From: Planctomycetota bacterium
GTDB taxonomy: Bacteria > Planctomycetota > UBA1135 > UBA2386
Assembly (NCBI GenBank): GCA_046290465.1
Contig: JBKAGP010000001.1
Span: 1,472,001 to 1,536,000, forward strand
DNA: 64,000 nucleotides
Direction of reading: 5' to 3'
In this document: piece by piece, positions 15,799 to 20,900 of the stretch
How the letters are laid out: each line of letters begins with the position of its first letter
How positions within the stretch are numbered: position 1 is the stretch's first letter
The notes under the pieces: generated by a model
What the model was told of the DNA's origin: nothing
Databases searched by the model: none
Seen by the model: the letters and a program-made list of their open reading frames with translations, nothing else
Program-made: the position numbers and the translations under genes

Positions 15799-16655
15799 GC
15801 CCCCACGACCAACACGAACACGAGCCGGACCGGAACGGGGCGGAACGAAACGGGGCGGACCGAAACGGGGCGGGCGGCGAGCCGCACTGGAACGAACTGG
15901 ACGCGGTGCGCCGCTTCCCGTCCGAGGACGAATGGCTCGATCTGCCGATGCCGACCGACGAGCAGCTGCCCGACAGCGAACTCGACGGCAACGACGGCAG
16001 TTCGTTCGCCGACCGCGTGCTGCAGGCCAACCGCGAGGAGCGCGAGCTCGACGAGCGGCTGGCCGAGCTCGACCGGCTGCTGCCGCGCGAGCTGCTGCTA
16101 CAGTTTCGCGCGCCGGAGCCGAGCGCTTCGTTCGCGGCCGACACGACCGATCGCGCGCAGCAGGACCGGCGGCAACGCTGGGCCGAGACGCTGTCGCGCT
16201 ACGTCGCGCCGGAGCCATCGCCCGAGTTCGTCAACCGCACGCTCGCCGCGCTGCAGGACGACCAGGACCCGACCCGCGCGGCGGCCCAGCAAGGCAGAAC
16301 CCAGCAAGGCAGGTCCCAGCAAGGCAAAGCACCGACCAGCGCGACCACGACGACGCCCCGTCGGGCGGGCCCCTCGGCCGGCTCTCGGTCCAGCAACCGC
16401 ACCAACCTGCCGATGTGGGGCCTGCTGTCCGCTGCGGCCGCGGCGCTGCTGTGGCTGACGCTGACCGATCGCACCCGGCAACCGCTGGAGGTGCGCATCG
16501 CCGACCAGGCCCCGACCTCGGTCGCCTACGTCGACTCGACCACGCCGATGGCCGCGATCCTGTCGCACGTCGCCGACGACGAAGAGCCGCACGCGCTGTT
16601 CGACGAGCCGGTCGACGGTCTCTGGCTGGTCGGCGAAAGCGGGGAGCTGCGATGA
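15795..16655 (+). CDS. Putative anti-sigma factor (single TM)
   Basis: ATGA overlap with ECF gene, TM 'WGLLSAAAAALLWL', duplicated APEPSxxF motif. Confidence 0.6.
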   Translation: MSPHDQHEHEPDRNGAERNGADRNGAGGEPHWNELDAVRRFPSEDEWLDLPMPTDEQLPDSELDGNDGSSFADRVLQANREERELDERLAELDRLLPRELLLQFRAPEPSASFAADTTDRAQQDRRQRWAETLSRYVAPEPSPEFVNRTLAALQDDQDPTRAAAQQGRTQQGRSQQGKAPTSATTTTPRRAGPSAGSRSSNRTNLPMWGLLSAAAAALLWLTLTDRTRQPLEVRIADQAPTSVAYVDSTTPMAAILSHVADDEEPHALFDEPVDGLWLVGESGELR

Positions 16656-18112
16656 AGCTCGGTCCGGCGATCCTGCGGCTGGCGCTGGCAACGGCGCCCG
16701 CCTGGTCCGGCAGCGCGGTGCTCGCGCAGACCGAGGCGTCCGCGGACGCGATCGAGCGACTGCTCGCCGAGCTCGACGAACGGTTCGAGCGCGGCGACGT
16801 GCAGGGCTACCTGGCGCGGTTCGAACCCGACCACCGCGGCGCCGTCGCGATGGCCGGCCGGCACCTCGAACGCCTGGTCGCGGTCAGCAAGCGGCGCAGC
16901 CGCAGCTCGCGCATCTTCGCCGGTCCGAGCCAGGTCGGCAGCCGCACGCTGGTGCGCGTCCGCCACGACCTCGAACTGACAATCGGCGCCGGCGCGCCAC
17001 GCAAGTTCACCGAGGACTCCTACCTCGCGGTTCGCGTCGAGGACGGCGAGCTGATCCCGACGTTCGCCGTCGAGATGCCGCCGGCGATGAACTGCGTCAA
17101 GGGCAACAAGTTCAAGTGCCCGCCGTGCAACTACGAGATCGGCGGCGTCGACGGCTTCCTGTGCGTGCCGCTGCGCCAGGAGAAGTCGCTCGCCCTCGAG
17201 TCGGCGAGCTTCTACCTGATCGGCACCGGCGTGGTCTGCGACGTGCACGTCCAGGTGCAGAGCGAGCCGCAAAAGGCGCAGGTGGCGGCGCGCCGTCTGG
17301 CCGAGGCGTTCGCCAAGATCGAGCCGACCGCCGAGGTCGGCCTGGCGACCGCGTGGGCGCCGCCGATGCACGCCAAGGATCCGCCGTCGGGAATGGACAG
17401 CGCCCGCGTCGTCGTCAAGCTGCCGCAGGACAGCCCGAAGGCCGACGGCGAACGCACGATCTTCCACGTGGTGGCGTTCGGCGGCCTGCAGCACGTGCTG
17501 CTGGTGCGCGGCAGCACCGCGTCGCTGGCCGCGCACGCGGCGGCGCTCGACGCGTTGTTCCAGAGCTACATGCTGCTCGAGGTCGACTGCGACCTCGCCG
17601 AGGCGGCGGCGCGGCCGCTGCGCCATCACATCGGCGGCGCGTTCGACGGCAGCCGCTACGACAACCGCCGCTATGGCGTGACGTTCACCGGCCCGAAGGG
17701 CTGGCGCCCCGAGCACCGCATCGGCGGCGCGCGGTTCCGCGCCCGCTGGACTGGCCCGGACGGCAGCCAGCTGTGGCTGATCGGCTACGGCGTGCCGGCG
17801 GGCATGCAGGCCTGGACCAGCAAGCTGGCCGATCGCTGGATCGCGCACCATTGCGACAAGCACGGGCTGAAGGTCGCCGACCCGCAGCCCGAGGGGCTCG
17901 ACGACGACTGGCACGAGTCGGCGGCCGGCGCGCTCGAGCGTTCGTGCGTGCTGACCTGTGCCGAGCCGTCGTCGCCGACGACGCCGCGGCGCCGGGTCCT
18001 GCACGTGCAGCTGCACGACGACCTGCTGCTGATCGTCGACGGCTTCGGCGGCGGCAAACAGGCCGAACGCGCGGTGTTGACGACGCTCGGCTCGCTGGCC
18101 CGCAAGCGCTGA
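16652..18112 (+). CDS. Secreted hypothetical protein, third gene of the ECF operon
   Basis: ATGA overlap, signal-like N-terminus, NTF2-like start, 'KCPPCNY'. Confidence 0.7.
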   Translation: MKLGPAILRLALATAPAWSGSAVLAQTEASADAIERLLAELDERFERGDVQGYLARFEPDHRGAVAMAGRHLERLVAVSKRRSRSSRIFAGPSQVGSRTLVRVRHDLELTIGAGAPRKFTEDSYLAVRVEDGELIPTFAVEMPPAMNCVKGNKFKCPPCNYEIGGVDGFLCVPLRQEKSLALESASFYLIGTGVVCDVHVQVQSEPQKAQVAARRLAEAFAKIEPTAEVGLATAWAPPMHAKDPPSGMDSARVVVKLPQDSPKADGERTIFHVVAFGGLQHVLLVRGSTASLAAHAAALDALFQSYMLLEVDCDLAEAAARPLRHHIGGAFDGSRYDNRRYGVTFTGPKGWRPEHRIGGARFRARWTGPDGSQLWLIGYGVPAGMQAWTSKLADRWIAHHCDKHGLKVADPQPEGLDDDWHESAAGALERSCVLTCAEPSSPTTPRRRVLHVQLHDDLLLIVDGFGGGKQAERAVLTTLGSLARKR

Positions 18113-18169
18113 CGAGAACGCGACCGGCCGAAGGCTGACCGGCACCCGCGCCGCGGCTAGACTGCCGGC

Positions 18170-18529
18170 GTGAACATTCCCGCCGGCATGCAGGTGGCCT
18201 TCCAGGGCAAGGCCGCGTCGATGCGCGAGATCGCGCAGCAGCTCCAGCAGGCGGGCATCCGCACGGCCTCCGGACCGCTGCCCGGCGGCTGAGGCCCGCA
18301 CGCCTGGCTCGCGGTCGCGAGCGACGAACGGCAGCGCGCGATGGACGTGCACCAGCAGCACCTCGACGACATGGTGCGCCGGCAGGGCCTGCCGGTGCAC
18401 GACATCGTCACCGACCTCAGCGCCGAGCAGACCCAGTGCCCGGCGTGCCTGACCATGTTCGCGACCGAGGGCCGCACGCGCTGTCCCGACTGTGGCCTCA
18501 ACTTCGGTGGCCTCAACTTCGGCGGCTGA
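18170..18529 (+). CDS. Candidate selenoprotein (119 aa, TGA at codon 41) with C-terminal zinc ribbon
   Basis: GTG 18170, TGA 18290 and the CPAC/CPDC ORF at 18341 share one frame; TAGACT -10 box 6 nt upstream; hairpin 18307-18322. Confidence 0.72.
18307..18322 (+). promoter_or_regulatory. Putative bacterial SECIS hairpin
   Basis: GCTCGC-GGTC-GCGAGC, loop 20 nt after TGA 18290. Confidence 0.6.
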
Positions 18530-18533
18530 AACG

Positions 18534-20900
18534 ATGCGCATCCTCTCCCTGTCGTTCGCCGCCCTCGTCGTCGCCGCCGCCGCCTCGGCCCAGAAGATGG
18601 CCTGGCAGATCCCGGAGCGCGGCGCGCACGTGTTCGATCGCGTGACGCGCCGCTTCGAGGTCACGCCCCCGCCGTCGAAGTACCTGCCGCTGGTGGCCGT
18701 GCACGGCGGTCGCAGCGCGACGCCGCACCGGTGGCGCTACTTCACCTGCGCGCGCAACCAGATCCCGAAGGGCTTCGCCGCCCCCGACTACGACGACTCC
18801 GGCTGGTTCGTCGGCGAAGGCGGCTTCGGCCCGACGCCCGGCCAGACCGGCAACCACCGCACCGCCTGGAAGAACGACGTCTGCTGCCTGCGCACCAGCG
18901 TCGACCTCGGCCGCAGCAAGCCGAAGGCGCTGTGGTTCCAACTCGACCACGACGACGGCGTGCGCATCTGGCTCAACGGCGAACTGGTCGTCGCCGACGA
19001 CGGCTATGGCGTCTCTCGCGAGTACTTCGTCACCGGCAGGGCGCTCGACGCCTGGCAGCGCGGCGACAACCTGCTGGCGGTCCAGTGCAGCAACGTCGGC
19101 GGCGCGCAGTACCTCGACGTCGGGCTCAAGTACTTCCCGCGGCTGGCGCGCGGCCAGCGCCGCGTCGAGGACCTCAAGAAGGCCCTGCGCGACGAACGCA
19201 ACCAGGCCAACCGGGTCCGGCGCGCGCTGTTCGGACCGTTCCGCCCGCCGGCGATGCTGCTGCAGGGCGAGCTCGACGAGGACGCCACCCACGTCGTGCA
19301 CCGCCCGGTCGACCTCCGCGAGGTCGCCTGGTGGGTCGCGACCGACCTGCGCTGCGGTCCGTTCGGCGGCGCGGTCAAGCTCGACGCGCCGCGGATGTGG
19401 GAGCTCGGCGACCTGCGCGTGCGCGGCCGGGCGAGCGCCGTCGACGAACTCGGCTGGCAGACGATCAAGGTCAAGCTGGAGACGACCAAGGAGCCGGATC
19501 GCGGCAAGGACAGTAAGCGCTACATGCAGCACTCGGTGCTGCGCTTCGTGCACCACGGCTTCGAGGGCGACCTGTTGATCAAGCGCCGCCTCGACGTGCG
19601 GCCCGAGGGCACGCGCGTGGTGACGTTCGAGAGCAGCCTCGAGGGCACCATCACGCGCGGCGAGGACTTCAAGGAGGTCGCCGCCGGCGTCGTGCAGGAC
19701 GAGACCTGGAAGCTGAGCAGCACCCACGAGAACCAGGACACGGCGTTCCGGCTGCTGGTGAAGAGGGCGATCGAGAAGGGCGTCGCGCGGCTGCGCGAGC
19801 AACTCGGCAAGCCCAACGGCGAACGGCTGCTGAAGTCCGACGGCCCGAAGGCCGCGCGCAGCTACCACTCGGGCCGGCTCGCGATCGGCCTGCTGGCGCT
19901 GATCAAGGGTGGCCTGCCGAAGGACGACGAGGTGCTGCAACGGTGCCTGCAGGAGCTGCGCAAGCGCCCGCTGATCGACACCTACACGCTCGGCAACGCG
20001 CTGATGGCGCTCGAGAGCTACTACCAGCCGGCGACCGAGATCAGCCTGCTGCGGTCCGGTTCGATCGACCGTCCGCAGAAGCGTCAGGTGCCCGACGACG
20101 ACCAGGCGCTGATGCAGAAGTGGACCGACCGGCTGATGCAGAACATCGACACGCGCGTCGATCCCGGCTACCTGGTGCGGTTCAACTACGTGCGCGGCGG
20201 TCGCTTCGACAACAGCGTGCACCAGTACGGGTTGCTCGGCCTCTACGCCGCCCACCTGTGCGGCATCGAGGTCACGCCGACGACGTGGGAGGCCGCCGCC
20301 AACCACCTGCTCGACGTGCAGGAGGAGGACGGCAGCAAGCTGACGCTGCGGCTGATGGACTACCGCACGCACAACAAGCTGCAGTTCGATCCCGACGCCA
20401 GCGTCACGGTCGCCAGTTCGCCGAGCCGCGCCAACGGCTGGAGCTACACCAGCCCCAAGCACGGCGGCACCGAGTCGGGCATCTGGGGCAGCATGACCTG
20501 CGCCGGCATCACCGGCCTCGCGATCTGCCAGGCGGCGCTGCTCGACTACGAGGACGTCAAGCGCCGCAAGCTGCAGAACGACGCGTCGCGGGCCCGCAAC
20601 GACGGCTTCGCATGGCTCGCCGAGAACCTGACGGTGCGCTACCACCCCGGCGCGATGACGCGCCAGCGCCGCTGGCTCTACTACTACCTCTACGGCCTCG
20701 AGCGGGCCGCGCTGCTGAGCGGCGTCGCGCTGATCCAGGAGCGTGATTGGTTCTTCGAGGGGGCGTTGATGCTGGTGCTCGCGCAGCTCGAGAACGGCGA
20801 CTGGCCGGGCGAGCTGACCGCGGACGAGGCCGTCGAGCGGAATGCGATGGCGATCCTGTTCTTGAAGCAGAGCACCAGCCCGGTGCTGACCGGCAAGTGA
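18534..20900 (+). CDS. Secreted protein: galactose-binding-like domain + prenyltransferase/squalene-cyclase-like repeats
   Basis: Signal peptide, 'DHDDGVRIWLNG', 'DNSVHQYGLLGL', 'GSMTCAG', 'YYYLYGLER', 'QLENGDW'. Confidence 0.7.
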   Translation: MRILSLSFAALVVAAAASAQKMAWQIPERGAHVFDRVTRRFEVTPPPSKYLPLVAVHGGRSATPHRWRYFTCARNQIPKGFAAPDYDDSGWFVGEGGFGPTPGQTGNHRTAWKNDVCCLRTSVDLGRSKPKALWFQLDHDDGVRIWLNGELVVADDGYGVSREYFVTGRALDAWQRGDNLLAVQCSNVGGAQYLDVGLKYFPRLARGQRRVEDLKKALRDERNQANRVRRALFGPFRPPAMLLQGELDEDATHVVHRPVDLREVAWWVATDLRCGPFGGAVKLDAPRMWELGDLRVRGRASAVDELGWQTIKVKLETTKEPDRGKDSKRYMQHSVLRFVHHGFEGDLLIKRRLDVRPEGTRVVTFESSLEGTITRGEDFKEVAAGVVQDETWKLSSTHENQDTAFRLLVKRAIEKGVARLREQLGKPNGERLLKSDGPKAARSYHSGRLAIGLLALIKGGLPKDDEVLQRCLQELRKRPLIDTYTLGNALMALESYYQPATEISLLRSGSIDRPQKRQVPDDDQALMQKWTDRLMQNIDTRVDPGYLVRFNYVRGGRFDNSVHQYGLLGLYAAHLCGIEVTPTTWEAAANHLLDVQEEDGSKLTLRLMDYRTHNKLQFDPDASVTVASSPSRANGWSYTSPKHGGTESGIWGSMTCAGITGLAICQAALLDYEDVKRRKLQNDASRARNDGFAWLAENLTVRYHPGAMTRQRRWLYYYLYGLERAALLSGVALIQERDWFFEGALMLVLAQLENGDWPGELTADEAVERNAMAILFLKQSTSPVLTGK

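What the first reader, a model, noticed from the sequence alone, without database searches (positions are those of the whole stretch)
18170..18529. Second candidate selenoprotein: PGG-U-GP motif plus zinc ribbon
Seen: GTG 18170 opens MNIPAGMQVAFQGKAASMREIAQQLQQAGIRTASGPLPGG-TGA-GPHAWLAVASDERQRAMDVHQQ...CPAC...CPDCGLNF in one frame. The track shows only the last 62 aa. A TAGACT -10 box sits 6 nt before the GTG, as for other genes here. The hairpin GCTCGC-GGTC-GCGAGC follows the TGA. Inference: Sec in a Gly/Pro loop of a small alpha/beta domain linked to a zinc ribbon, possibly a redox or metal sensor.
Basis: partly seen in the sequence, partly recalled or inferred. Interest (0 to 1): 0.82.

Follow-up and report, generated by a model that had tools for sequence, protein, structure and literature searches.

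The report
Hidden selenoprotein gene with zinc ribbon
A small planctomycete gene that looks cut in two by a stop codon most likely makes one 119-residue protein carrying selenocysteine, and some relatives have swapped that stop codon for a tryptophan codon while keeping the selenocysteine signal intact.

Summary
GTG 18170 to TGA 18529 is one reading frame, broken only by TGA 18290-18292. The hairpin GCTCGC-GGTC-GCGAGC lies at 18307-18322.

The best reading is a real selenoprotein gene.
- The genome has selA, selB, selD and tRNA-Sec(UCA).
- Among 80 distinct orthologous genes, the codon at this column is TGA in 51, TGG in 17, Cys in 10 and another codon in 2.
- Both sides of the TGA evolve as coding sequence.
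- The four hairpin codons (CTC GCG GTC GCG) are identical in 49/51 TGA genes and 0/10 Cys genes. Other conserved residues use 3-4 synonymous codons.
- The GGUC loop starts at nucleotide 24 from the UGA. The SelW-like selenoprotein gene of the same genome has a GGUCU loop at nucleotide 25.

The protein is a short, distant relative of the predicted "(seleno)protein DG" family, NCBIfam NF049953. It scores 51 bits against a cut-off of 130 and lacks the N-terminal zinc ribbon. The Sec column and the SECIS position are homologous to those of that family.

One result was unexpected. All 17 TGG (Trp) orthologues, plus 9 more from metagenomes, also keep the hairpin unchanged. This suggests natural Sec/Trp dual decoding of UGG. 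Biochemical function is unknown.

The parts
18158..18163 (+). TAGACT, a -10-like hexamer 6 nt before the GTG start. It suggests a leaderless or nearly leaderless mRNA (inferred).
   Evidence: Sequence read. TA[GC]ACT lies 6-10 nt upstream of the start in 33 of 39 orthologues. The generic sigma-70 scan found no promoter in 17950-18750.
18170..18529 (+). Complete coding sequence: 119 codons plus the terminal TGA, with a GTG start and Sec at codon 41.
   Evidence: Orthologues align over residues 1-113 or more across the TGA. 37 of 39 orthologues start with GTG at the same place. Coding-type substitution pattern on both sides of the TGA.
18188..18382 (+). N-terminal alpha/beta domain, residues 7-71: strand 7-14, helix 15-27, strand 32-37, Sec loop, strand 44-50, helix 51-71.
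   Evidence: AlphaFold2 model, mean pLDDT 82.2. VIA-align best Z 9.3 (PrgK/EscJ first domain) and Z 6.6 to 2hfv. Foldseek gave only weak PII/PstA/ACT-like hits, best E 0.02.
18290..18292 (+). In-frame TGA, the predicted selenocysteine codon (residue 41), in the motif PLPGG-U-GPH.
   Evidence: TGA at this column in 51 of 80 distinct orthologous genes, Cys in 10, TGG in 17. It aligns with the Sec/Cys column of true NF049953 members.
18307..18322 (+). SECIS hairpin: 6-bp stem GCUCGC/GCGAGC with apical loop GGUC (18313-18316). The loop starts at nt 24, counting the U of UGA as 1. It is encoded by codons W46(G)-L47-A48-V49-A50-S51.
   Evidence: Folded. The exact 12-mer CTCGCGGTCGCG is present in 49/51 TGA, 17/17 TGG and 0/10 Cys genes, and in 19/19 TGA and 9/9 TGG further metagenome genes. 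The in-genome Rdx selenoprotein gene has a GGUCU loop at nt 25.
18428..18499 (+). C-terminal zinc ribbon, residues 87-110, with CPAC (18437-18448) and CPDC (18482-18493).
   Evidence: The four Cys are invariant in the alignment. Pfam zinc-ribbon models hit below threshold: PF13719 18.8-21.5 bits, PF13248 16.4-18 bits. Two short strand pairs in the model.
18527..18529 (+). Terminal TGA, read as a true stop. The next gene's ATG is at 18534.
   Evidence: Homologues end within a few residues of this point. This shows that TGA is an ordinary stop in this genome.

Best explanation
Window 18170-18529 is one gene for a 119-residue cytoplasmic selenoprotein.

Mechanism of decoding. As the ribosome reaches UGA at codon 41, the hairpin 15 nt downstream (GCUCGC-GGUC-GCGAGC) acts as a bacterial SECIS. 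It binds SelB carrying Sec-tRNASec(UCA), and selenocysteine is inserted instead of termination. What is shown here: the frame, the conserved UGA, RNA-level selection on the hairpin, the Sec machinery, and Cys at the homologous column in relatives. What is inferred: SelB binding and actual Sec insertion.

The protein. It has a small strand-helix-strand-strand-helix domain. The Sec sits on the exposed Gly/Pro-rich loop between strands 2 and 3. A four-Cys zinc ribbon follows.

Family. It belongs to a planctomycete subfamily of the recently predicted '(seleno)protein DG' family. This subfamily has lost the N-terminal zinc ribbon.

Function (inferred). Deeper-branching members carry a Cys 4-5 residues before the Sec (C-x3/4-U). 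Cys forms have C-x2/4-C. The ancestral chemistry is therefore most likely a selenenylsulfide/dithiol redox or metal-binding centre on that loop. The window's clade has lost the partner Cys and keeps a lone Sec. It would then have to react with an outside thiol or ligand.
For: Sec machinery in the genome:
- selB, 353.7 bits against a cut-off of 242.
- selA, 453 bits against 268.
- selD, 352 bits, itself with an in-frame TGA.
- tRNA-Sec, 72.8 bits, anticodon TCA.

Conservation of the TGA:
- 89 loci gave 80 distinct coding sequences: TGA 51, TGG 17, TGC/TGT 10, other 2.
- TGA forms reach down to about 34% identity across several families of the order.
- Both flanks show third-position-dominated divergence.

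Hairpin:
- Codons L47, A48, V49 and A50 are CTC, GCG, GTC and GCG in 51, 50, 51 and 50 of 51 TGA genes.
- Equally conserved A85, P91, A92, P106, G109 and L110 use 3-4 synonymous codons each.
- Cys forms keep neither the codons nor, mostly, the amino acids. Two Cys forms (L095, L179) keep the residues WLAVA(S/G) but spell them with other codons.
- The loop starts at nt 24 in 68/70 TGA genes and at nt 27 in 2/70. Ser to Gly at codon 51 turns a U-A pair into U-G in 20/70. One outermost pair changed from G-C to U-A on both sides.

Controls:
- The Rdx/SelW-like CVV-U gene of the same genome has the hairpin GGCGUCC-GGUCU-GGCCGCC, loop at nt 25.
- In 30 Rdx loci of related genomes, a simple longest-stem finder placed a pentaloop (G/A)GU(C/U)U at nt 25 in 20. 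In the other 10 it picked a different stem.
- The E. coli fdhF SECIS has G23/U24 in its apical loop (review PMC8659212, passage read).

Family link:
- NF049953 is the only significant family hit, E 1e-13.
- True members score 217-221 bits (L097, L103, L105).
- Three TGA-bearing true members (L139-L141) have the Sec at the same column. Their hairpins, with AGGU-type loops, lie on the homologous L-Q-V codons.
Against: - There is no direct evidence of Sec insertion: no mass spectrometry, no 75Se labelling, no ribosome profiling.
- 17 of 80 orthologues carry Trp (TGG) at the column. Trp is not a usual Sec replacement. It would be compatible with a residue that is not catalytic, or with UGA being read through as Trp.
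- The stem shows almost no covariation, so the classical RNA-structure test is uninformative.
- The hairpin lacks the bulged U of the E. coli fdhF SECIS.
- Rfam returned no SECIS match. I do not know whether it holds a model that fits bacterial in-frame SECIS elements.
- One TGA-type genome (G034, 92% complete) gave no SelB match at E <= 1e-40, though it has TGA-type Rdx genes.
- Gene neighbourhoods differ between clades and give no functional hint.
Confidence: 0.87

Rival explanations
1. UGA at codon 41 is read through as tryptophan by near-cognate tRNA-Trp, perhaps helped by the downstream hairpin. TGA and TGG orthologues would then make the same Trp protein, and no selenium is involved.
For: Trp (TGG) stands at the aligned column in 17 of 80 distinct genes and in most full-length database proteins. 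TGA and TGG differ by one transition. The two states switched at least 3 times, and 7 times by parsimony, on the tree. The hairpin is equally conserved in both states.
Against: - Cys, not Trp, is the alternative residue in the deeper relatives and in the true DG family.
- Deep TGA forms carry a C-x3/4-U pair matching C-x2/4-C in the Cys forms.
- The loop GGUC at nt 24 matches the loop of the SelW-like selenoprotein gene of the same genome and of its orthologues.
- All Sec genes are present.
- From general knowledge, no hairpin-stimulated Trp read-through system is known in bacteria (recalled, not searched).
Confidence: 0.07
2. The TGA is a true stop. The locus holds a decayed gene or two separate small genes: a 40-residue peptide and a 62-residue zinc-ribbon protein starting at ATG 18341.
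For: Standard ORF calling gives exactly these two pieces. TGA is this genome's ordinary stop, as shown by the gene's own end at 18527-18529.
Against: - The TGA is kept at one column in 51 distinct genes across several families, while both flanks stay under coding-type constraint in one frame.
- Met58 (ATG 18341) is Leu in many orthologues.
- The 16 codons between the TGA and 18341 include the most conserved stretch of the gene.
- Uninterrupted TGG and Cys versions of the same length exist.
Confidence: 0.03
3. The invariant hairpin is not a SECIS but another RNA or DNA element, for example a regulator-binding palindrome or an mRNA stability element. It happens to lie in the gene, and the TGA is decoded by some other route.
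For: The hairpin is kept even where the codon is TGG, where a SECIS is not obviously needed. The stem does not covary.
Against: - It is lost in every Cys form: 0/10 and 0/3, plus 0/9 unclassified. Its presence therefore tracks UGA/UGG, the two codons a UCA anticodon can read, and not the gene as such.
- Its distance from the codon is fixed: nt 24 in 94 of 96 genes.
- Its loop matches those of other selenoprotein genes of the order.
- True DG Sec forms have a hairpin at the same place with a different stem sequence.
Confidence: 0.03

Closest known systems
Zinc ribbon-containing (seleno)protein DG (NCBIfam NF049953). It was named 'hypothetical protein DG' when predicted by deep-Sep in Desulfosediminicola (Xiao & Zhang 2025, PMC12013277, passages read; listed with motif GUxG in review PMC13188914, table passage read).
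   Same: - It is the only significant family hit: E 1.1e-13, model positions 64-172 of 172.
- Same alpha/beta core and same C-terminal CPxC...CPxCG zinc ribbon.
- Sec/Cys at the same aligned column, G-[U/C]-G.
- SECIS hairpin on the homologous L-x-V codons, with GGU in the loop.
- Function is unknown in both.
   Different: - It scores 51.4 bits against a cut-off of 130, so NCBI's rule would not name it.
- It lacks the N-terminal zinc ribbon, about 55 residues.
- It occurs in Planctomycetota, not Desulfobacterota.
- The stem sequence is different and nearly invariant (CTCGCGGTCGCG).
- The window's clade has lost the neighbouring Cys.
- The codon toggles between TGA and TGG, which was not seen in the DG genomes searched. 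There, 91 of 101 genomes scored over the cut-off, 3 of them with a TGA. Of the forms without a stop, 25 were fetched. The 20 whose column could be located have Cys; in the other 5 the script's motif failed, though all 5 visibly carry Cys in this stretch of the printed sequence.
E. coli fdhF-type bacterial SECIS read by SelB.
   Same: A hairpin inside the coding sequence just 3' of the UGA. G and U lie in the apical loop about 23-26 nt from the UGA. In E. coli these are G23/U24, and the minimal element starts 11 nt after the UGA (PMC8659212, passage). Here the loop GGUC is at nt 24-27 and the stem starts 14 nt after the UGA.
   Different: There is no bulged U in the 5' arm. The stem is a perfect 6-bp helix. 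Binding to SelB was not tested.
SECIS-dependent Sec insertion at UGG by wobble decoding in E. coli (Xu, Croitoru, Rutishauser, Cheng & Arner 2013, PMC3834832; abstract and discussion read).
   Same: A UGG codon in the functional context of a bacterial SECIS, with wild-type tRNASec(UCA). This is exactly the arrangement in the 17 + 9 TGG orthologues. Their genomes have SelB and tRNA-Sec(UCA).
   Different: The E. coli case was an engineered, over-expressed system. Good yields needed extra selA, selB and selC. Here the arrangement is natural and conserved, but its decoding has not been measured.
PDB 2hfv (P. aeruginosa RPA1041) and PII/ACT-like small alpha/beta domains. That 2hfv represents Pfam DUF2007 is recalled and not checked here.
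   Same: Strand-helix-strand-strand-helix two-layer fold of about 60 residues: Z 6.6, rmsd 3.1, 62 residues aligned to 2hfv. Weak Foldseek hits to PstA, PII and GlnK. The Sec loop lies between strands 2 and 3, where PII proteins have their T-loop.
   Different: There was no sequence-level match to any such Pfam family at E <= 1. The best Z scores (9.3) are to the unrelated-looking PrgK/EscJ ring domains. The fold is common and says little about function.

Membership tests
Bacterial SelB/SECIS-dependent selenoprotein gene | In-frame UGA conserved among orthologues, with coding conservation on both sides | tested here: met
   TGA in 51 of 80 distinct genes and in 19 further metagenome genes. Codon-position differences are 444/298/890 upstream and 547/443/1624 downstream.
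Bacterial SelB/SECIS-dependent selenoprotein gene | Cys-containing homologues aligned at the Sec column | tested here: met
   TGC/TGT in 10 of 80 genes. Of 25 fetched DG members without a stop, the 20 whose column could be located have Cys there. Trp in 17 of 80 is an unusual extra state.
Bacterial SelB/SECIS-dependent selenoprotein gene | Stem-loop just downstream of the UGA, with conserved G/U in the apical loop at a fixed distance | tested here: met
   6-bp stem. Loop GGUC at nt 24 in 68/70 TGA genes and at nt 27 in 2/70. Synonymous sites are invariant. Same loop type as the in-genome Rdx gene.
Bacterial SelB/SECIS-dependent selenoprotein gene | selA, selB, selC and selD present in the genome | tested here: met
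   with 30, and 45. All score over the curated cut-offs.
Bacterial SelB/SECIS-dependent selenoprotein gene | Selenium shown in the protein (75Se labelling or mass spectrometry) | not testable with these tools
   No RNA or proteome data were available. No RNA holder was listed.
NCBIfam NF049953, zinc ribbon-containing (seleno)protein DG | Whole-protein score at or above the curated cut-off (130 bits) | tested here: not met
   51.4 bits; 46.3 bits in the six-frame genome search. True members score 217-221 bits.
NCBIfam NF049953, zinc ribbon-containing (seleno)protein DG | N-terminal zinc ribbon (model positions about 1-55) | tested here: not met
   The match covers model positions 64-172 only. 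The gene starts at GTG 18170, and a stop lies 4 codons upstream in frame.
NCBIfam NF049953, zinc ribbon-containing (seleno)protein DG | Core alpha/beta domain with Sec/Cys in the G-[U/C]-G loop, plus a C-terminal CPxC...CPxCG ribbon | tested here: met
   Alignments. The four ribbon Cys are invariant.
PII-like / DUF2007-like small signalling domain | Sequence or clear structural match to the family | tested here: inconclusive
   No Pfam hit. Foldseek best E 0.02. VIA Z 6.6 to 2hfv and 4.9 to PII-like chains, below the level that separates true relatives from common folds.

The most novel reading that the evidence does not exclude
The TGG orthologues of this gene may be natural cases of selenocysteine encoded at a tryptophan codon. 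In these genes a SECIS is kept under purifying selection behind UGG. SelB would deliver wild-type tRNASec(UCA), which reads UGG by U-G wobble in competition with tRNA-Trp. The product would be a Sec/Trp mixture with no truncated protein. Lineages would then be free to toggle between UGA (Sec or stop) and UGG (Sec or Trp).

Evidence not excluded by anything found here:
- The hairpin is intact in 17/17 and 9/9 TGG genes.
- Within 26 TGG genes, 0 of 4 hairpin codons vary synonymously, against 13 of 16 other invariant-residue codons.
- The hairpin is lost in all Cys forms.
- SelB was found in all four TGG genomes checked. tRNA-Sec(UCA) was found in three; none was found in G024, which is 69% complete. 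TGA-type Rdx genes are present in all four.
- At least 3 switches between the two states occurred on the tree.
- The reaction works in E. coli (PMC3834832).
Probability: 0.35. Interest if true: 0.86.

Novelty: new variant of a known kind. Interest (0 to 1): 0.68.

Why it matters
1. Annotation. The gene is annotated, at best, as a 62-residue fragment. The NCBIfam model for its family does not reach it (51 bits against 130). A whole planctomycete subfamily of selenoproteins is therefore currently missed. It was found in 38 of 61 related genomes.

2. SECIS recognition. This is an unusually clean example of RNA-level selection inside a coding region. Twelve nucleotides stay fixed across proteins only about 35% identical. 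That gives a defined 16-nt SelB target for this phylum.

3. Decoding of UGG. The TGG orthologues with an intact SECIS make an open question testable: does the Sec machinery decode UGG in nature, as it can when forced to in E. coli? If so, selenoproteomes counted from UGA codons alone are incomplete. UGG/UGA toggling would then be a route by which organisms hedge against selenium shortage.

Tried and rejected
- Rfam scan of 17900-18800 at E <= 10: 8 chance-level matches, no SECIS family.
- Pfam on the protein: only sub-threshold zinc-ribbon hits.
- Generic promoter and terminator scan: nothing found.
- My own genome-wide scan for TGA plus hairpin in G000 gave 709 candidates with no clear enrichment. 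It was too noisy at 70% G+C, so I replaced it with named selenoprotein genes (selD, Rdx) as controls.
- SelD's SECIS did not show a clear GGUC-type loop. RNAfold gave a 9-bp stem with loop CGGGC at nt 30. I left it as unclear.
- Presence of SelB does not separate TGA genomes from TGG genomes. It scores over the cut-off in 58 of 61, so that phyletic test has no power.
- I looked for a tRNA-Sec with a CCA anticodon in TGG genomes. Only UCA forms were found, in G016, G029 and G036. No tRNA-Sec was found in G024, which is 69% complete.
- Neighbours gave no hint. The two flanking genes (486 and 788 residues, both with signal-peptide-like N-termini) have no Pfam family. They are syntenic only in the closer clade. 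In 65 ORFs next to deeper relatives the families differ from clade to clade: PEPCK x3, HMGL-like x3, DUF481 x4, GDSL/BNR x3 and others. One search used a wrong frame for the downstream gene and is discarded.
- RNA data: no RNA holder was listed.
- Foldseek against the PDB: no match at E <= 0.001.
- Earlier notes of this scan: nothing by sequence or by words on UGG/SECIS.
- Literature: searches found only the E. coli recombinant work on UGG plus SECIS and no natural case. One search found NF049953 only in the 2026 review. The figures of the deep-Sep paper are not held and its supplements were not opened, so the original Desulfosediminicola sequence and SECIS were not compared directly.
Full report
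**Observation.**
- GTG 18170 opens a frame that ends at TGA 18527-18529. It is interrupted once, by TGA 18290-18292 (codon 41).
- The read-through product is 119 residues: MNIPAGMQVAFQGK...GPLPGG-U-GPHAWLAVAS...CPAC...CPDCGLNF.
- The hairpin GCTCGC / GGTC / GCGAGC lies at 18307-18312 / 18313-18316 / 18317-18322.
- TAGACT lies at 18158-18163, six bases before the GTG.
- Ordinary ORF listing sees a 40-aa piece and a 62-aa piece.
- The genome has 70% G+C, and long frames are open on both strands here. The open frame itself is therefore worth nothing, and the case rests on comparison.

**The organism can make selenoproteins.** The single-contig 6.59-Mb genome encodes all four components.
- SelB: 353.7 bits, cut-off 242.
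- SelA: 453 bits, cut-off 268.
- SelD: 352 bits, next to selA, and itself carrying an in-frame TGA at ..SSAG-U-AAKL...
- tRNA-Sec: 72.8 bits, with anticodon TCA.
- A SelW-like Rdx gene also has an in-frame TGA in a CVV-U motif.
- TGA is still this genome's normal stop. The gene under study ends with one.

**Homologues span the TGA.**
- A six-frame search of 61 related genomes found a match in 38. Nearly all matches cover residues 1-113 with a TGA inside.
- The protein database holds 72 uninterrupted relatives, most of them 107-131 residues long, that cover both halves.
- I collected 89 loci, which gave 80 distinct coding sequences.
- At the column of the window's TGA the codon is TGA in 51, TGG in 17, TGC/TGT in 10 and something else in 2. 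Two of the 51 have the TGA one codon further upstream.
- TGA forms occur from 81% down to about 34% identity.
- Among 11 genus-level orthologues, differences fall 444/298/890 on codon positions 1/2/3 upstream of the TGA and 547/443/1624 downstream. Both halves are translated in this frame.
- Met58, the start of the 62-aa ORF, is Leu in many orthologues.

**The hairpin is under RNA-level selection.**
- The stem and loop are spelled by codons L47-A48-V49-A50, plus the last base of W46 and codon 51.
- In the TGA genes these four codons are CTC, GCG, GTC and GCG in 51, 50, 51 and 50 of 51.
- Equally conserved residues elsewhere (A85, P91, A92, P106, G109, L110) use three or four synonymous codons.
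- The exact 12-mer CTCGCGGTCGCG is present in 49/51 TGA genes. Of the two exceptions, one has a C-to-U change that keeps a U-G pair, and one has a mismatch.
- It is present in 0/10 Cys genes. Most Cys genes do not even keep the amino acids LAVA. Two of them (L095, L179) keep WLAVA(S/G) but spell it with other codons. The protein therefore does not require these nucleotides.
- A metagenome scan added 19 non-duplicate TGA genes, all with the 12-mer. It also added 3 Cys and 9 unclassified genes (Cys-type or truncated by eye), none with it.
- The loop starts at nt 24 from the U of UGA in 68/70 TGA genes and at nt 27 in the other two.
- The common Ser-to-Gly change at codon 51 turns a U-A pair into U-G in 20/70 genes. 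It is a mismatch in 3/70. One gene changed the outer G-C pair to U-A on both sides.
- Because the stem hardly varies, classical covariation cannot be scored. The signal is invariance at synonymous sites.

**The loop matches the SECIS loops of this lineage.**
- The Rdx gene of the same genome has GGCGUCC-GGUCU-GGCCGCC, with the loop at nt 25.
- In 30 Rdx loci of related genomes, a simple longest-stem finder placed a pentaloop (G/A)GU(C/U)U at nt 25 in 20. In the other 10 it picked a different stem.
- In E. coli fdhF the determinants are G23 and U24 of the apical loop plus a bulged U17. The minimal element begins 11 nt after the UGA (review PMC8659212, passage read).
- Here GGUC occupies nt 24-27 and the stem begins 14 nt after the UGA. 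There is no bulged U.
- Rfam gave no SECIS match.

**Family.**
- Pfam finds only sub-threshold zinc-ribbon hits.
- NCBIfam gives one real hit: NF049953, "zinc ribbon-containing (seleno)protein DG". The E-value is 1.1e-13 and the score 51.4 bits against a cut-off of 130. The match covers model positions 64-172 of 172. It is the only such locus in the genome.
- The family was predicted by the deep-Sep program as "hypothetical protein DG" in Desulfosediminicola. No function was assigned (PMC12013277, passages). It is listed with motif GUxG in a 2026 review (PMC13188914).
- True members in my set (Candidatus Electrothrix L097, and L103, L105) score 217-221 bits. They are Cys forms and have an extra N-terminal zinc ribbon.
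- In the order of that Electrothrix genome, 91 of 101 genomes have a member over the cut-off, and three of these carry an in-frame TGA.
- Those three read ..SC-U-GSTFHLQVR....KG-U-RSSNLELQVR.. and ..GG-U-GGPQLFLQVR... Their hairpins are CCUGC-AGGUUC-GCAGG, GAACUC-CAGGUGC-GAGUUC and UUCUUGC-AGGU-GCGAGAA, lying on the L-Q-V codons.
- This is the same column and the same place as U...L-A-V here. Sec and SECIS are therefore positionally homologous.
- Most Cys forms of that order show only weak hairpins there.
- The window's protein is thus a short planctomycete offshoot of the DG family. It fails two membership criteria: the score and the N-terminal ribbon.

**Structure and likely chemistry.**
- The AlphaFold2 model has mean pLDDT 82 from a 32-row alignment. 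It gives strand 7-14, helix 15-27, strand 32-37, strand 44-50 and helix 51-71, then a small ribbon around the four Cys.
- Residue 41 lies in the loop between strands 2 and 3.
- Foldseek gives only weak PstA/PII/ACT-like hits, best E 0.02.
- VIA-align gives Z 9.3 to the first domain of PrgK/EscJ and Z 6.6 to 2hfv. This is a common two-layer alpha/beta fold and carries no functional message.
- Deep-branching TGA forms have a Cys four or five residues before the Sec (CGSG-U, CVTG-U, CNTG-U, CNPNG-U). Cys forms have C-x2/4-C. The DG family proper has CGKG-C-C. This points to a selenenylsulfide/dithiol or metal-binding loop. That is an inference.
- The window's clade (GPLPGG-U) has lost the partner Cys.
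- Neighbouring genes vary between clades and gave no hint.

**The unexpected part: the Trp-codon orthologues.**
- All 17 TGG genes keep the hairpin letter for letter, and so do 9 further metagenome TGG genes plus one truncated one.
- Within the 26 TGG genes, 0 of 4 hairpin codons are synonymously polymorphic, against 13 of 16 other codons for invariant residues (Fisher p = 0.007). The sequences are related, so this p-value overstates the case.
- The TGG genes sit inside the subclade that lost the partner Cys. On a weakly resolved tree of 110 columns, TGA and TGG switch 7 times by parsimony. At least 3 switches are forced by well-supported branches.
- SelB was found in all four TGG genomes checked (G016, G024, G029, G036).
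- tRNA-Sec(UCA) was found in G016, G029 and G036. None was found in G024, which is 69% complete.
- All four carry TGA-type Rdx genes. All 53 Rdx matches in 44 of 61 genomes carry TGA, so the toggling is specific to this gene.
- The hairpin is lost with Cys codons but kept with UGA and UGG. These are the two codons a UCA anticodon can read.
- In E. coli, a UGG placed before a SECIS is decoded as a Sec/Trp mixture by the wild-type machinery without truncation. Good yields needed over-expressed selABC (PMC3834832, abstract and discussion read).
- Two literature searches found no natural case.
- I therefore put forward, at about one chance in three, that the TGG orthologues are natural UGG-Sec/Trp genes.
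- The main alternatives are that the hairpin has a second, unknown role, or that UGA itself is read as Trp. The Cys relatives, the C-x-U pairs and the SelB-type loop argue against the second.

**Verdict.**
- The kind of thing is known. It is a predicted selenoprotein family added to NCBIfam after 2025.
- This subfamily, however, lies below the family's threshold. It has a different architecture and an exceptionally fixed SECIS. It also shows a TGA/TGG alternation with a retained SECIS, which I could not find described.
- Sec insertion itself and the protein's function remain to be shown experimentally.

**Earlier notes of this scan.** They hold one other selenoprotein report from this genome. 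I did not test it. They hold nothing on this family.

Noticed in passing
window 18134-18169; upstream regions of L017-L076: A TA[GC]ACT hexamer lies 6-10 nt before the start codon in 33 of 39 orthologues, and the start codon is GTG in 37 of 39. Many also have a GTGGC(A/G)-like motif about 17-19 nt further upstream. This suggests a conserved promoter giving a leaderless or nearly leaderless mRNA that starts with GUG.
   Followed up: partly
G000:C1:1309619-1311945 (outside the window): selA and selD lie next to each other on the minus strand. selD is itself a selenoprotein gene, with an in-frame TGA at ..SSAG-U-AAKL... Its downstream hairpin did not show a clear GGUC-type loop.
   Followed up: partly
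G000:C1:3102914-3103126 (L113) and L196-L224: A SelW-like Rdx gene (CVV-U) carries a SECIS with a 6-8 bp stem that covaries between genomes. A pentaloop (G/A)GU(C/U)U at nt 25 was placed in 20 of 30 loci by a simple stem finder. All 53 Rdx matches in 44 of 61 related genomes carry the TGA.
   Followed up: partly
window 16652-18109 and 18534-20897: The two flanking genes (486 and 788 residues) both begin with signal-peptide-like sequences and have no Pfam family. They stay next to the selenoprotein gene in the closer relatives. The downstream ATG is only 4 nt after the selenoprotein gene's stop, which suggests co-transcription.
   Followed up: partly
L137 (G160:C11) and L130 (G061): Some Cys-type members of the true DG family still have a good hairpin at the SECIS position. 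L137 has 10 bp with loop AGGU, and L130 has 6 bp with loop UGGU. These may be fossil SECIS elements from recent Sec-to-Cys changes.
   Followed up: no
L049 (JBERSB010000288.1) versus L020 (G003): A contig filed under a Luminiphilus (gammaproteobacterial) MAG carries a coding sequence identical to that of a same-genus planctomycete genome. This is probably a binning error in the public record.
   Followed up: no
G000:C1 near 2746927, 2896767, 3673738 and 5113979: My TGA-plus-hairpin scan hit the same element, CACGAGC-GGTC-GCTCGTG at nt 35 after a TGA, at four places in the genome. It is probably a repeated (mobile?) sequence and not a SECIS.
   Followed up: no
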